This document shows positions 36,001 through 48,000 of a DNA stretch of 64,000 nucleotides, one piece after another. A program made the position numbers. The stretch covers positions 809,671-873,670 of the forward strand of contig NW_018406103.1 of assembly GCF_002113885.1 (NCBI RefSeq). Direction: 5' to 3'. The stretch is from Mizuhopecten yessoensis. Lineage: Eukaryota. Position 1 is the stretch's first letter, and each line of letters opens with the position of its first letter.

Positions 36001-39000
36001 CTCAAATACAAAACACAGTGCCGTGACGCGACTCGAGCCCGCAACCCTTCGGTAACGAGCCTGGCGTCCTGCTACATGTACTAGACTACCGTGACCGTAG
36101 GTCTGGTGTAAGTTATCTAGAAAAGTTGCTATATTTAATATTGCATTTGAATTGTATATTTCCAGTTTTACCAAAATGTCTTTTAAGAGGTGGGAGAAAA
36201 TGACTCAATCATTATGTAGGTATGTGGGATATTTAAGAAAAAATGACAAAAGGAATATATGTTCTCTCTTTTTCCACTGTAGCAACCTGCATTTTAGTAG
36301 GAAGTATTCGGTGCCTGGTGCTGATTTATAGTGAAGACGTGGGCTTAACTCCATTCTGTTTATAGGCTCTCTTGTGGTTTGCAGCAGATAAATTCCCGTG
36401 AACAGCTAGATGAATCTTCATTGGAAGTCGACAAGTGGTGATCGTCGGTTGGTACGGCGAGGTTATATATTTCATAGCAAGCGGGGGCAAAGGGACATTG
36501 AAAAGATCTCTAACTCAACGGTCCTTCCTGTATCTTCCTTCTTACGTTCAAGTACTCAGATCATGTTAACTTCAAGTGTCTATAACCAAGTCACATGCTT
36601 ACTGATTGATCGTTTGTTGGTTTTTTTGTACATAATTTCAAATCCAAACATGACGTCAAGTGCAAAAGTGGCGCCAATCGTAATATAACTTTCCCTGTTG
36701 CACACTTATATATTACATACAAACAAACTACTACGGATGATATATCTTCATGGTTGGTGAAAATGATGTTTTTAAAAAGTAAAAATAAATTAAAAAATGG
36801 TACTTCAAATGTCATTTATACAGAAGAAGAGGTTTTTTTTACTTGGAGTATTCGCCCTTTTATTAAGGAAAAGCAACCACAAGGTGTTTTTTCCTAGCTT
36901 TGAGTAGCTTCCCGTGTCAAGTTAGTAATAAGCTTTTCGTTCCATTGATTGTACACTCATTCTGATGCAGTGCCGTCTGGAAGGCAAACTTTGGTAAATA
37001 GTAGGAATTATAGTGTTCTTATCTTCTATTTCAAACATTCCGACTATAGTTGACAGTTATACTTTTGTAAAATGCATGTCAACAAGCAAGGTTAAGTTGG
37101 AGAGCTATTCGTTATTTCTTATTCAGAATAACGACTAACCTTCTTACCTTCATCTTTTCGTAGAATCTATTTCTGATCTAGCTGCATTAAGTTTTCTATT
37201 TATAGAATCCCGTGTAATGGTTTTGTCGTCTTTCCATACAACACTGCCATCAGTGATAGCTCGCTATAGCTCCTGACCGGACAAATGTCCAAGAAGCATG
37301 ACTGGTCGTAGCCAGCACGTGGCTTTGTTGACATAGTGGTAATTGTTTCTGAAGTTTCGAGGAAATTGTTTGTTATTGTCTTTTAGGTAAACACACGAAA
37401 CACACTCAATTTCTTGCATATTCTTCGCCTTCGTTTCTTTGCTTTGCAAAATGCCTTATCATGGCTATCTGAGACGCAGGCAATGTGACGAAATGTTTTC
37501 AAACAGCTTTAAGAAATGAGGGCTATGTGATTGATATCTTTCAAATCTAAATATCTTATATATCTTAAATTATAAAACAAAAATTAAATTCTATAGATTC
37601 TCAATGTTTATCATACAGCAAATAAATGAACAGTTAAGTTATATCATCGGCACAGTATTATATCGTCGATGTGGAGGTCTTACAGGGAGTCCATTCGGGA
37701 ACCGTCGGCACTTTCCGTAAACGAGAGTGCCGACGGTTCCCGATTGAATGGAAGTCTAGGGCTCGTTTATGCCGAACAACCGTATTGTCTGCTTTTAAAT
37801 GTAACATTTTCGGGAATATGCAGGCCTTGAAAGGCTTTGTCAAAGCTCGCCTGAAAGCAGCATCATAAACCAACAACTCATGTTTAACTGGTCCAACCGT
37901 TTGGATCGCGATAAACGAAAGCGGCCTTGGTGTCGCCATGACTGTTTACGTCAGTGGGATACCTGGCGCTATAGGTATATCAAGAATTTATAAAGTAAAA
38001 CAACTCAAAATCAAATCTTTATGACATATCTAGAGAGGTACAGATAAGAGCTCTGCGGACTTCATTTCCTAAATATTATGTTTTTAAATGTGAAGGCATT
38101 TTAACGGAGCGGACAATTCACATGTAATTATGGTATATGTCTGTAGTTTACATGCTTTAATGATAGTTTTACATTTAATGTCTTTACCTGGCAATTTTAT
38201 TCTTAATTTATTCATCTTTTTTTTTTCTTGCCAATTAATTGCAAATATCTGTAGCTTAATAAAAAAAAANCCCTTTGTTAGTACAGGAGGAACATACTCC
38301 AATCTTAAAAAAGCATTAAAAAGAACATACAAACAGTTGTACACAGTGTCGTGGGCATAGAGTAAATGCTCGTACACAATTTGATCGTGCCCAGCTGCTT
38401 TACCTTGTGGTAAACTTTTACAGACCTTTTTAACGTCAGACATAGAAATTTCAACAAAACATTCATTGTTTACTATATGATTGGATAGAATATTGGCAAC
38501 AGATGTATTGATTTGGTCTGCAAAATTAGCATCAAAGTCATTAAGAGACGACTGGGAATATATGTCTTCAAAATATTCACCCCAATGTATGGCTAGAAGA
38601 GCAGGGTCTCTAATGACCCTCCCGCTAAAGTTCATTTCAGCGCCAACAGCACCCGAGGATGACTTACAGCGACTTTTGATGAGAGACCAAAACGATTTTT
38701 GATTTACATCCGCACATTTCTCAATGTCGTTGTTGAGGTTTACAATATGGTCTTCTGATACCTGACGATGTCTTTTCCTAAATAGGCACTTTGCATTTTT
38801 ATAGAGCCTAAAGGTATTGGAGAGGGGGTCCCGAGGTCGTCCTTGAGAGATCCATTCCAGACGCAACCGCCACATATTACGATGGAGTTCCTTTAGATGA
38901 TTATTCCAGTACGGTTTAAGGAATCTACAGAATTTACGCTTCGGTAACACACGTTCTGAAGTCCGCTGAATGCAATTCACAAGCTCGTTGGTGTAATTCT

Positions 39001-45000: not shown

Positions 45001-48000
45001 GTCACTTAATAATTGTCCCACAGCACGTAAATGTACAGTTTCAACTGCACGTTTAGGCCTAATGTTAAATGTCAACGATTTGGTAATAACGCCATCTTCT
45101 GAGAGAGAGAAGCCCGACATGAAGATGATTTACATAAAAATATCTTTTATACCTTTTGTCAAAATTGCAGCGATTTTTGCAAATATTTCTTTTGACAATG
45201 TACCTATTTGACCATTTTGGATAAAATATCAACCGTCTTCTAGGTTAAAGCGTCAATCGTAGCCCGCGCCCCTTTGAATAATAGTTGTTTATTCTCGAGA
45301 AGAAGACACATTTTTGCCACAACGTTGGTTTTTTGGCTGTTATCACATTCGTTTTATACAAATGAAATAAATATATCGTATTGTACTGGAAAACCATGAA
45401 ATTTTCTATTTCTTACATTTTTTTCACGTCACGCAAATATTGCTTCATCAGAAAAGCGCGGGAATGTGTAACGTAGTTGTTGACGCCAAGTTATAATCAC
45501 GTCACGCTTGACAACAATACAGAGCGCCATTTTGAATGGGTTTTCATTGCAATTTTGCCGTTTGCTAGTATCATCTATTATCTGCTAAGATTTCCAGACA
45601 AAAATGTTATTAATTGTGTAGATATGTAAAAACAATAATGTATGCTGCAAAGGTTGACAACGCAACTACTTATTCTGCTGTCACTTCATCTAAACTGAAA
45701 ACTGAAAAATCTACGCAGAGAATATAATGTACAATGTACCGTTCAGATTGGACAATACTAAGAGTGACGTTTTTACTTGAGAATATATAATATTTCGTTT
45801 ATCTTCACTGTATTAAACATATGTGTTTATCAGATGGAGAATTCATGATATTTCAAGAGCCTCGACAAAGCCTTTCAAGGCCTGCCTATTCCCGAAAATG
45901 TTACATTTAAAAGCAGACAAACCGGTTGTTCGGCATAAACGAACTATCCCTAGACTTCCATTCAATCGGAAACCGTCGGCATTATCGTTTACGGAAAGTG
46001 CCGACGGTTCCCGAATGGACTCCTTGTAAGTACTCCACATCGACGATATAATACTGTGCCGAGGATATAACTGAACTTTTCATTCATTCGCTGTATGATA
46101 AACATTGAGAATGTATATAATTTAATTTTTGTTTTATAATTTAAGATATATAAGATATTTGGATTTGAAAGATATCACATAGCCCTCATTTCTTAAAGCT
46201 GTTTGAAAACATTTCGTCACATTGCCTGCGCCTCAGATAGCCATGATAAGGCATTTTGCAAAGCAAAGGAACGAAGGCGAAGAATATGCAAGAAATTGAG
46301 TGTGTTTCGTGTGTTTACCTAAAAGACAATAACAAACATTTTCCTCGAAACTTCAGAAATAATTACCACTATGTCAACATAGCCACGTGCTGGCTACGAC
46401 CAGTCATGCTTCTTGGACGTTTGTCCGGTCAGGGGCTATAGCGAGCTATCACTGATGGCAGTGTTGTATGGAAAGACGACAAAACCATTACATGGGATTC
46501 TATAAATAGAAAACTTAATGCAGTGAGATCAGAAATAGATTCTACAAAAAGATGAAAGTAAGAAGGTTAGTCGTTATTCTGAATAAGCAATAACGAATAG
46601 CTCTCCATCTTAACCTTGCTTGTTGACATGCATTTTACAAAATTATAGCTGTCCATTATAGTTGGAATGTTTGAAATAGAAGACAAGAACACTGTAATTT
46701 CTACTATTTACCAAAGTTGCCTTCCGGACGACACTGCATCAGAATGAGTTTACAATCAATGGAACGAAAAGCCTATTACTAACTTGACACGGGAAGCTAC
46801 TCACAGTCAGGAAAAAACCTTTTGGTTGCTTCTCCTTTATAAAAGGGCGAATACTCCAAGTAAAAATACTCTTCTTCTGTAAAATGATTGATAAATTGGT
46901 GTTCCATTTAAATTATGGTGTTTAGTAAATACATAATTATCAGCCCAATTGAATTGTCAATGAATCCACCGTAGTCTTTATTTTATGTTATTGAGAGGTG
47001 CATGTAACAAACCTATACATCGACACATTCTAACACAGTCAAATGAGTAGAAGAGATTAAAACTGTAATCAAGTTCAATAAAGGAACATTTCGTTATCAC
47101 TGAAGAAAAGACAGAAGATATAAAACTGCATACATGTTCAATAAAGGAATGAATGTTTGGTTGTCACTGAAGTAAAGAAAGAAGATATAAAACTGCATGC
47201 AAGTTCAATAAAGGAACATTTCGTTATCACTGAAGTAAAGACAGAAGATATAAAACTGCATACAAGTTCAATAAAGGAACATTTCGTTATCACTGAAGAA
47301 AAGACAGAAGATAAAAAAAACTGCATACAAGTTCAATAAAGGAATGTTTGGTTATCACTGACGTAAAGACAGAAGATATAAAACTGCATACAAGTTCAAT
47401 AAAGGAACATTTCGTTATCCCTGACGTAAAGACAGAAGATATAAAACTGCATACAAGTTCAATAAAGGAACATTTCGTTATCCCTGACGTAAAGACAGAA
47501 GATATAAAACTGCATAACAAGTTCAATAAATGAACATTTTGTTATCACTGAAGTAAAGACAGAAGATATAAAAATGCATACAAGTTCAATAAAGGAATGT
47601 TTGGTTATCACTGACGTAAAGACAGAAGATATAAACATGCATACAAGTTCAATAAAGGAACATTTCGTTATCACTGACGTAAAGATAAAAGATAAAACTG
47701 CCATGGATGTTAGATTAACGCCGTTCAAGACGCCATGAATACACATTCAAACTGAATCTGACAAATTTCTCTGCCATTAGAGGAAGTGTAGATAAAGGAC
47801 GTTTATACAATTTGTATAATAGTGTCAATGGCGGTAATGCGTACAAATGTACATGACATAAACTCACGGGTTAGTCACACGATGATAAAAGGTTTCACAC
47901 AATTTTTAAAAAAAACCACTAATTGTCATTATATTACATAATGACGTAAAAGAAGTCAAGCAGCCCTTATTATCAAGGTCACCTATGAATGAACACTAAC

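What the first reader, a model, noticed from the sequence alone, without database searches (positions are those of the whole stretch)
36812..46887. ~10 kb diverged palindrome (fold-back duplication) with a 470-bp spacer
Four colinear blocks mirror each other around spacer 40471-40942: 36812-37850/45855-46887, 38085-38150/44761-44828, 39779-40416/43813-44468 and 40416-40470/40943-40998. Arms differ by roughly 10% by eye plus indels, and there is no N at the centre, so simple read-level misassembly is unlikely. Old MITE pieces are duplicated in both arms, while each arm later gained private insertions that break the symmetry. The origin could be a replication fold-back, breakage-fusion, or a giant Foldback-like element. 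The structure is a built-in before/after record of mutations.
Basis: seen in the sequence. Interest (0 to 1): 0.7.

Follow-up and report, generated by a model that had tools for sequence, protein, structure and literature searches.

The report
Old decaying inverted duplication with LINE insertions
A stretch of non-coding DNA in what is probably a mollusc genome was once copied back-to-front next to itself, and both copies have since drifted apart and picked up jumping-gene insertions; it is a real but ordinary kind of genome rearrangement.

Summary
The mirror structure is real.

- **Extent:** only about 1.8 kb per arm is shared, and the arms differ by 118 substitutions in 1793 aligned columns (6.6%) plus 11 indel events.
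- **Private material:** most of the rest of the 10 kb belongs to one arm only. Two 5'-truncated non-LTR retrotransposons of different families account for much of it.
  - The right-arm copy (40999-43808) has a 6-bp target-site duplication, and the left arm keeps the empty site.
  - Both LINE ORFs are too intact to be as old as the arms.
- **Content of the arms:** no protein domain, no reading frame conserved between arms, no tandem subrepeats, no target-site duplication beyond chance and no gene-conversion tracts.
- **Assembly:** a single N at 38270 sits in the left arm where one LINE breaks off. The centre and the whole right arm are gap-free.

Best reading: an old local fold-back or template-switch inverted duplication of non-coding DNA, now decaying neutrally. 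I could not test whether the arms have other copies in the genome, because no eukaryotic DNA collection was available. A long-TIR transposon therefore remains a live rival.

The parts
36812..37848 (.). Block A, left arm (outer block)
   Evidence: Inverted match to 45857-46887, 93.6% over 1041 columns. 53 substitutions in 1027 aligned columns = 5.2%.
37690..37748 (.). Strong local hairpin inside block A, with a 26-30-bp stem
   Evidence: Arms 37692-37715 / 37723-37746 are 92% complementary. The fold has dG -46.7 kcal/mol and z -7.8. Rfam gives only sub-threshold miRNA-like hits, E 0.37-0.54.
37849..38074 (.). Left-arm A-B interval (226 bp), not shared with the right arm
   Evidence: Local alignment to 44838-45856 scores no better than shuffles: 15 against a mean of 14.8.
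38075..38154 (.). Block B, left arm
   Evidence: Inverted match to 44758-44837, 88.8% over 80 nt.
38155..38269 (.). 115 bp of unassigned left-arm sequence between block B and the N
   Evidence: No alignment above chance to the right-arm B-C interval.
38270..38270 (.). Single N, an assembly gap or masked base, at the point where the left-arm LINE reading frame ends
38271..39775 (-). Left-arm private insertion: a 5'-truncated non-LTR retrotransposon carrying the endonuclease and pre-RT part. It is cut off at the N.
   Evidence: Pfam Exo_endo_phos_2, E = 1.1e-8. It aligns to residues 15-553 of the 1144-aa relative P0006. The 501-codon frame is open.
39776..40420 (.). Block C, left arm
   Evidence: Inverted match to 43809-44471, 87.2% over 673 columns. 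53 substitutions in 636 columns = 8.3%.
40415..40470 (.). Block D, left arm (innermost). Its first 6 bp, TGTAAT (40415-40420), are the unoccupied target site of the right-arm LINE.
40471..40942 (.). Single-copy central spacer (472 bp). It holds a 52-nt motif (40640-40691) that is 75% complementary to 40271-40322 in block C.
40943..40998 (.). Block D, right arm
   Evidence: 94.6% complementary to 40415-40470.
40999..43808 (-). Right-arm private insertion: a 5'-truncated non-LTR retrotransposon (2810 bp) with an intact RT-to-C-terminus frame. Its 3' end carries an ATTG/TTGA-type short repeat tail. It is flanked by a 6-bp target-site duplication: ATTACA at 40993-40998 and ATTCCA at 43809-43814.
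   Evidence: RVT_1, E = 9e-37. 48% identity to residues 331-1140 of P0006. Junctions are shown.
43809..44471 (.). Block C, right arm
44472..44757 (.). Right-arm B-C interval (286 bp), not shared
44758..44837 (.). Block B, right arm
44838..45856 (.). Right-arm A-B interval (1019 bp), not shared and of unknown nature
   Evidence: No Pfam hit in its ORFs. No alignment to the left interval above chance. No other copy in the window.
45857..46887 (.). Block A, right arm (outer block). It contains the decayed copy of the hairpin at about 45961-46019.
   Evidence: The hairpin has dG -35.2 kcal/mol and its arms are 83% complementary.

Best explanation
This is a genuine, old, local inverted duplication: an interrupted palindrome of non-coding DNA in a repeat-rich region of a probable mollusc genome.

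A segment of at least 1.8 kb was copied in reverse orientation beside itself, leaving a 472-bp single-copy spacer as the former fold-back loop. The segment was probably 2-3 kb before later gains and losses.

The most likely cause is a replication or repair error. A 3' end or stalled fork switched to the complementary strand near the future centre, copied back along the arm, then switched or was joined back. That leaves normal sequence on both sides.

Since then the two arms have decayed independently and, as far as can be seen, neutrally. They have accumulated 6.6% substitutions and 11 small indels, and two intervals have been replaced.

At least two much younger LINE insertions followed, one in each arm.

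- **Shown:** the anatomy, the divergence, the LINE identities, one target-site duplication with its empty site, and the relative ages.
- **Inferred:** the fold-back or template-switch mechanism, neutrality and lack of function.
For: - Four colinear inverted blocks lie around one centre, with E-values down to 0.
- The arms differ mainly by substitutions: 64 transitions and 54 transversions, against 11 indel events. That is the signature of real mutation, not of long-read error or a chimeric read.
- Differences are spread evenly. The longest identical run is 69 in A and 51 in C, no longer than in shuffles (P 0.78 and 0.44), and the variance/mean of the 50-column mismatch counts is about 1. This fits neutral decay without gene conversion.
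- The right-arm LINE has a 6-bp target-site duplication, and the left arm preserves the unoccupied site.
- If the LINEs were as old as the arms, the RT frame would still be open in at most 1 of 5000 simulations. The endonuclease frame would be open in 0.34%.
- None of the 68 ORFs of >= 50 aa scanned has a hit inside the arms or spacer. The 3 weak hits all lie outside and fall below their cutoffs.
- The mirrored ORFs lose frame between the arms (translations).
- There is no target-site duplication beyond chance at the outer ends or around either arm.
- There are no tandem subrepeats in the arms.
- The stretch from block C (left) through the spacer to block A (right) is gap-free. The only N between 21639 and 64000 is at 38270.
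- A single-copy spacer is the hallmark of fold-back inverted duplications. In 21 sequenced human junctions the spacers measured 766-70,466 bp (PMC3907307, passages read). Ours, at 472 bp, is just below that range.
- A ~1.9-kb tandem duplication 5 kb away has similar divergence, 4.9-5.3%. Local duplication therefore recurs in this region.
Against: - Genome-wide copy number of the arms could not be tested. If the arms are multi-copy, this reading fails.
- The A-B and B-C intervals differ completely between the arms. A simple duplication history then needs a loss plus a gain at each of two places. Variation among members of a repeat family would explain that more easily.
- Blocks A and C differ modestly in substitution rate, 5.2% against 8.3% (Fisher P = 0.013). 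A single neutral event does not predict that.
- The outer homology boundaries are fuzzy over about 15-20 bp.
- Junction microhomology cannot be recovered without the ancestral sequence.
- The scaffold join at the N (38270) links blocks A and B of the left arm to the rest.
Confidence: 0.6

Rival explanations
1. The structure is one non-autonomous DNA transposon with very long terminal inverted repeats (foldback-like). Alternatively it is two copies of one composite repeat inserted tail-to-tail. Either way it was later riddled with LINE insertions.
For: - The overall shape is long inverted arms around a short non-coding middle domain. That matches the foldback scheme described for Tetris (PMC4079207, passages read).
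- The non-homologous A-B and B-C intervals resemble the modular variation seen among copies of a repeat family.
- The arms carry small hairpin or TIR-like units.
- The window is rich in repeats and short arrays.
Against: - No target-site duplication lies at the homology boundaries. The best 7-nt flank matches are not at the boundaries, and matches of >= 7 nt occur in 28% of random window pairs.
- Neither arm taken alone has a target-site duplication.
- The arms contain no tandem subrepeats.
- There is no transposase remnant.
- No other copy or fragment occurs in 64 kb. That is weak evidence, given the window size.
- The outer ends are fuzzy, not sharp.
Confidence: 0.2
2. It is an assembly artefact. 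Either a diverged haplotype copy was mis-joined in inverted orientation, or the contig is a fold-back chimera.
For: - The window comes from a gapped scaffold with N runs of 136, 18 and 1.
- One N lies inside the left arm, exactly where a LINE is cut off.
- Many marine molluscs are highly heterozygous (recalled, not from a call), so about 6% divergence between haplotypes with private transposon insertions is conceivable.
Against: - Homology stops on both sides. The flanks 36000-36811 and 46888-48000 have no mirror match. An inverted haplotig would therefore need two clean joins without gaps.
- The inner palindrome and the whole right arm lie in one gap-free stretch.
- A chimeric-read fold-back would give near-identical arms, not 118 substitutions with a 64:54 transition/transversion ratio.
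- The block order A-B across the N mirrors the gap-free right arm.
Confidence: 0.07
3. The palindrome is, or was, a hairpin-RNA locus. Transcription through both arms would give long double-stranded RNA that is diced into endogenous siRNAs. This reading is compatible with an origin by inverted duplication.
For: - The arms could pair over about 1 kb at 94% and about 0.65 kb at 87%.
- hpRNA loci of Drosophila are inverted repeats of this general kind (PMC10317233 and PMC10292708, abstracts seen in the search listing only).
Against: - The arms show no homology to any protein domain, and no reading frame is conserved between them, so there is no visible target gene.
- Complementarity is decaying evenly, with no conversion tracts.
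- The internal hairpin has decayed by one-sided changes, not compensated ones.
- About 4.3 kb of LINE sequence interrupts the stem.
- No expression data are available.
Confidence: 0.05

Closest known systems
Fold-back / template-switch inverted duplications with a single-copy spacer, for example the human inverted duplications of Hermetz et al. 2014 (PMC3907307, passages read)
   Same: Two inverted copies are separated by a short non-duplicated spacer that corresponds to the fold-back loop. The origin is non-recurrent and not transposon-mediated.
   Different: - The human cases are megabase-scale and are attached to terminal deletions, translocations or rings. This one is kb-scale and interstitial, with normal sequence on both sides.
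- The spacer here (472 bp) is below their observed range of 766-70,466 bp.
- This event is ancient (6.6% divergence), so junction microhomology cannot be read.
Foldback transposons: Drosophila FB, Galileo and Tetris (PMC4079207, passages read)
   Same: Long inverted arms make up most of the ancestral structure, around a short non-coding middle domain.
   Different: - The arms contain no tandem subrepeats.
- There is no 8-10-bp target-site duplication.
- No second copy was seen in the window.
- Genome-wide copy number was not testable.
Large sex-chromosome palindromes of mammals (PMC6790999, abstract seen in the search listing only)
   Same: Inverted arms around a unique spacer.
   Different: Those palindromes contain genes and are kept nearly identical by arm-to-arm gene conversion. 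Here the arms are non-coding, 6.6% diverged and show no conversion tracts.
Hairpin-RNA (hpRNA) loci of Drosophila (PMC10317233 and PMC10292708, abstracts seen in the search listing only)
   Same: An inverted repeat able in principle to fold into a long hairpin.
   Different: There is no detectable parent or target gene, no sign of maintained complementarity, and no expression data.

Membership tests
Local inverted (fold-back / template-switch) segmental duplication | Two colinear copies in inverted orientation around one centre | tested here: met
   Four blocks in mirrored order, E from 0 to 3e-18.
Local inverted (fold-back / template-switch) segmental duplication | A non-duplicated spacer between the arms | tested here: met
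   The 472-bp spacer 40471-40942 has no copy in the window. The exception is a 52-nt motif that is 75% complementary to block C.
Local inverted (fold-back / template-switch) segmental duplication | Short inverted microhomology at the spacer/arm junction | not testable with these tools
   In the finished product the microhomology cannot be told apart from the innermost bases of the arms. It needs the pre-duplication sequence from an outgroup.
Local inverted (fold-back / template-switch) segmental duplication | Arms otherwise single-copy in the genome, and the orthologous locus of relatives unduplicated | not testable with these tools
   No eukaryotic genome collection was available. The only evidence is that the 64-kb window holds no other copy.
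Foldback transposons | Long terminal inverted repeats around a short middle domain | tested here: met
   This is a structural resemblance only.
Foldback transposons | Tandem subrepeats inside the inverted repeats | tested here: not met
   TRF finds no array between 36812 and 46887. Only chance-size direct repeats of 14-21 nt occur.
Foldback transposons | A target-site duplication of 8-10 bp at the element ends | tested here: not met
   The longest flank matches are 7 nt, are AT-rich and do not lie at the homology boundaries. Matches of >= 7 nt occur in 28% of random pairs.
Foldback transposons | Multiple dispersed copies in the genome | not testable with these tools
   None in the window. The genome was not available.
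Gene-conversion-maintained palindromes (sex-chromosome type) | Near-identical arms or long identical conversion tracts | tested here: not met
   6.6% divergence. The longest identical runs are 69 and 51 nt, no longer than in shuffles.
Hairpin-RNA (endo-siRNA) locus | Arms derived from, or complementary to, a target gene | tested here: not met
   No Pfam domain in any arm or spacer ORF of >= 50 aa. The mirrored ORFs lose frame between the arms. This test is limited: no translated search against whole proteomes was run.
Hairpin-RNA (endo-siRNA) locus | A transcript through both arms and Dicer-sized small RNAs | not testable with these tools
   No expression data.
Chimeric-read fold-back assembly artefact | Arms identical apart from sequencing error (mainly indels) | tested here: not met
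   118 substitutions against 11 indel events. Each arm carries a private LINE, one of them with a target-site duplication.

The most novel reading that the evidence does not exclude
The palindrome might be one member of an undescribed family of kb-scale, long-inverted-repeat non-autonomous elements in molluscs. It might also be transcribed into a long hairpin that feeds an endogenous siRNA pathway. Neither reading is excluded, because genome-wide copy number and small-RNA data could not be examined.
Probability: 0.1. Interest if true: 0.5.

Novelty: new member of a known kind. Interest (0 to 1): 0.2.

Why it matters
The locus has modest value as a worked example. It records how an inverted duplication decays:
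- It gives a substitution-to-indel ratio (118 to 11) and a transition/transversion ratio (64 to 54).
- One LINE insertion sits beside its preserved empty site.
- A second LINE insertion is associated with sequence replacement.

These figures could calibrate relative ages of duplications and retrotransposon activity in this genome.

For assembly curation, it flags a scaffold join (the N at 38270) inside a repeat-bearing palindrome arm.

It raises no new biological principle unless the arms prove to be multi-copy or to produce small RNAs.

Tried and rejected
- **RNA genes.** Rfam at gathering thresholds found nothing in the window. A permissive scan of 36300-47900 gave 3 sub-threshold hits. Two are miRNA-like hits on the 37690-37748 hairpin (E 0.37 and 0.54, bits 24 and 23 against gathering scores of 51 and 70). 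I rejected both.
- **tRNA.** The window has one odd tRNA-like call, at 35638-35708, outside the structure.
- **Coding content.**
  - I scanned 13 of the 17 ORFs of >= 110 aa. I left out the two LINE ORFs, one ORF overlapping them and one containing Ns.
  - I scanned 68 of the 70 selected ORFs of >= 50 aa in 33.8-49.7 kb. The two LINE ORFs were left out, and ORFs lying wholly inside the LINEs had already been filtered out.
  - Nothing credible fell in the arms or the spacer.
- **One LINE split between the arms?** Rejected. The two LINE pieces share only 23% amino-acid identity over 197 overlapping residues and no nucleotide similarity.
- **Helitron-style ends** (5' TC, 3' CTRR, motifs recalled from memory). 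The inner ends finish in GAAT, so I did not pursue this (reading).
- **The spacer as a later insertion.** It has no terminal inverted repeats and no direct-repeat flanks beyond the AT implied by the symmetry (reading).
- **Extending the palindrome outward or across the 47049-47701 array.** No mirror match was found.
- **Aligning the unshared intervals.** The scores were at chance level.
- **Not done:**
  - A proteome-wide search with arm ORFs. I judged it pointless because the frames are not conserved between the arms.
  - Any search of the arms in eukaryotic DNA.
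Full report
**Observation**

Three independent comparisons recover the same four inverted, colinear blocks: the repeat finder, blastn of 36000-48000 against the whole window, and short-word blastn of the left arm against the right arm.

| Block | Left arm | Right arm | Identity |
|---|---|---|---|
| A | 36812-37848 | 45857-46887 | 93.6% over 1041 columns |
| B | 38075-38154 | 44758-44837 | 88.8% |
| C | 39776-40420 | 43809-44471 | 87.2% over 673 columns |
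| D | 40415-40470 | 40943-40998 | 94.6% |

The blocks surround a 472-bp spacer, 40471-40942.

No arm piece, spacer piece or private segment has another copy in the 64-kb window at E <= 1e-5.

The window contains three N runs: 11188-11323, 21621-21638 and a single N at 38270.

**How alike the arms are**

Global alignments of the blocks give the following.

| Block | Differences / aligned columns | Divergence |
|---|---|---|
| A | 53 / 1027 | 5.2% |
| B | 9 / 80 | 11% |
| C | 53 / 636 | 8.3% |
| D | 3 / 50 | 6% |
| All | 118 / 1793 | 6.6% |

- The 118 differences are 64 transitions and 54 transversions. Fourteen of the transitions lie at a CpG in one arm.
- There are 11 indel events of 1-11 bp, covering 50 gap columns.
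- Blocks A and C differ modestly in rate (Fisher P = 0.013).
- Differences are spread evenly along A and C. The longest identical runs are 69 and 51 nt, no longer than in shuffles (P 0.78 and 0.44), and the variance/mean of the 50-column mismatch counts is about 1.
- So there is no trace of recent arm-to-arm gene conversion, nor of selection to keep the arms complementary.

**What fills the rest of the 10 kb**

Only about 3.6 kb of the 10.1-kb span is mirrored.

*The right-arm LINE (40999-43808, minus strand)*
- It carries an 840-codon open frame with RVT_1 (E = 9e-37).
- It aligns at 48% identity to residues 331-1140 of a 1144-aa endonuclease-RT protein, P0006. It is therefore a 5'-truncated non-LTR retrotransposon with a complete C-terminus.
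- Its 3' end is a short ATTG/TTGA-type repeat that abuts block D at 40998/40999.
- It is flanked by ATTACA (40993-40998) and ATTCCA (43809-43814).
- In the left arm, blocks C and D overlap by exactly these 6 bp (TGTAAT, 40415-40420). The left arm is therefore the preserved empty site.

*The left-arm LINE (38271-39775, minus strand)*
- It carries a 501-codon open frame with an Exo_endo_phos_2 domain (E = 1.1e-8).
- It aligns to residues 15-553 of P0006 at 22% identity.
- The frame stops exactly at the N. The missing 3' part is either hidden by a gap or truly absent. I did not try to fill it.

*Relation between the two LINEs*
- They share only 23% amino-acid identity where they overlap.
- They have no nucleotide similarity.
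- They are independent insertions from different families.

*The remaining unshared intervals*
- These are A-B (226 bp on the left, 1019 bp on the right) and B-C (115 bp before the N on the left, 286 bp on the right).
- They do not align above shuffled controls.
- They are replacements, not simple insertions, and their nature is unknown.

**Relative ages**

I took half the arm-to-arm substitution and indel densities as the per-lineage decay. On that basis a 2520-nt ORF as old as the duplication would still be open in 1 of 5000 simulations and in 0 of 5000. The 1503-nt endonuclease frame would still be open in 0.34% (the figure for that ORF was out of frame and is void).

**What the arms are**

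- None of the ORFs of >= 50 aa in the arms or spacer matches a Pfam family. Of the 68 ORFs scanned, 3 had weak hits, all outside the arms and all below the curated cutoffs.
- ORFs that occupy mirrored positions in the two arms agree only over short stretches and then lose frame (translations). The arms are non-coding.
- TRF finds no tandem array inside 36812-46887.
- Both arms share two small structured units:
  - A hairpin with a 26-30-bp stem at 37690-37748 has dG -46.7 kcal/mol and z -7.8. Its right-arm copy has weakened to -35.2 through one-sided changes.
  - A ~94-nt unit bounded by 15-nt inverted repeats lies at 39956-40049 / 44178-44271.
They match none of the window's dispersed repeats.
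- A 52-nt motif in the spacer (40640-40691) is 75% complementary to 40271-40322 in block C. I have no explanation for it.

**Transposon test**

- A systematic scan found no target-site duplication at the homology boundaries of the whole structure or of either arm alone. The best matches are AT-rich 7-mers away from the boundaries. Matches of >= 7 nt occur in 28% of random window pairs.
- The outer boundaries are fuzzy over about 15-20 bp.
- In the Tetris paper, foldback elements are recognised by long inverted repeats containing tandem repeats, a middle domain and 8-10-bp target-site duplications (PMC4079207, passages read).
- Only the overall shape is met here.
- The decisive feature, copy number in the genome, could not be tested.

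**Artefact test**

- Between 21639 and 64000 the only N is at 38270. Block C (left), block D, the spacer, block D (right), the LINE, and blocks C, B and A (right) therefore form one gap-free stretch.
- Homology ends on both sides, so a misplaced inverted haplotype piece would need two seamless joins.
- A chimeric fold-back read would give near-identical arms. It would not give 118 substitutions and a private LINE in each arm.
- The scaffold join at the N is consistent with the mirrored order in the gap-free right arm.
- I rate an artefact as unlikely. It is not excluded without reads.

**Context**

- Named relatives of the right-arm LINE come from Patella caerulea and Mya arenaria, and from clam-symbiont metagenome bins that probably carry host DNA. 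The best identity is 53%. The window is probably molluscan. It does not look human.
- The window is repeat-rich:
  - a 44-bp satellite at 1-3084;
  - an 18/90-bp array at 60145-64000;
  - short arrays at 30314-30998, 47049-47701 and 51667-52020;
  - a short dispersed repeat family;
  - a ~1.9-kb tandem duplication at 52224-55747, whose copies differ by 4.9-5.3%, similar to block A.
- Local duplication is thus recurrent in this region.

**Mechanism**

The anatomy is two inverted copies, a short single-copy spacer, and normal unrelated sequence on both sides. That is what a fold-back or replication template switch produces.

In human inverted duplications, all 21 sequenced junctions showed such a spacer, of 766-70,466 bp. 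Thirteen of them had 2-8 bp of inverted microhomology at its edge (PMC3907307, passages read).

Those events are chromosome-scale and terminal, whereas this one is kb-scale and interstitial. I therefore favour a two-step template switch, or fold-back priming followed by nearby rejoining, over breakage-fusion-bridge. This step is inference. The microhomology cannot be read without the ancestral sequence.

**Verdict**

The locus is a real, old inverted duplication of non-coding DNA that is decaying neutrally and has been invaded by younger LINEs. It is a tidy example of a known kind of rearrangement, not a new kind of element.

The main open alternative is a long-inverted-repeat transposon, with a probability of about 0.2. 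A hairpin-RNA role is possible but has no support.

**What stayed unchecked**

- copy number of the arms in the genome;
- the orthologous locus in relatives;
- read support for the assembly;
- expression of the locus;
- what lies at the N.

Noticed in passing
window 38270: A single N sits exactly where the left-arm LINE reading frame breaks off, after a run of nine A. It is probably a contig join inside a repeat, so the left arm may be longer than assembled.
   Followed up: partly
window 52224-55747: A tandem (direct) duplication of a ~1.9-kb unit: 52224-54099 and 54100-55747. The copies differ by 5.3% (1316 columns) and 4.9% (184 columns), about the same as block A of the palindrome.
   Followed up: partly
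window 47049-47701: A 63-bp-period tandem array (10.3 copies, with a 190-bp higher-order period) begins 160 bp outside the right arm. Short arrays of this kind are reported in the Pacific oyster as cargo of Helentron-type non-autonomous elements (PMC7492417, passages read). Its flanks were not tested for those signatures.
   Followed up: no
window 60145-64000: An array with 18-bp and 90-bp periods and strong negative GC skew. Long ORFs are open in several frames on both strands, the longest 756 aa. One frame (62118-63644, minus) scores above the Pfam cutoff for LED_rpt (70.5 bits against 59). It could be a repetitive coding gene or a satellite that translates cleanly by chance.
   Followed up: no
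window 1-3084: A 44-bp-period satellite (about 70 copies, 82% matches) with strong positive GC skew, running off the window start.
   Followed up: no
window 35613-35709 and 6061-6157: Two 97-nt copies (77% identical) of a tRNA-like sequence. ARAGORN calls an odd tRNA at 35638-35708. It is probably a tRNA-derived SINE, and one copy lies 1.1 kb left of the palindrome.
   Followed up: no
window 12694-12862, 28890-29105, 31361-31565, 55813-56028: A short dispersed repeat family (about 90-215 nt, 69-77% identity, both orientations). None of its copies lies in the palindrome arms.
   Followed up: no
window 40640-40691 vs 40271-40322 (and the mirrored site near 43905-43960): A 52-nt motif in the spacer, itself built of two ATATTCGCGG-containing halves, is 75% complementary to a site in block C. 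That gives three copies around the centre. It is unexplained. It may be a relic of an earlier small inverted repeat that helped the fold-back.
   Followed up: partly
window 30314-30998 and 51667-52020: Two more short tandem arrays, with periods of 44 bp (15.6 copies) and 31 bp (11.4 copies). They add to the impression of a genome rich in dispersed mini-arrays.
   Followed up: no
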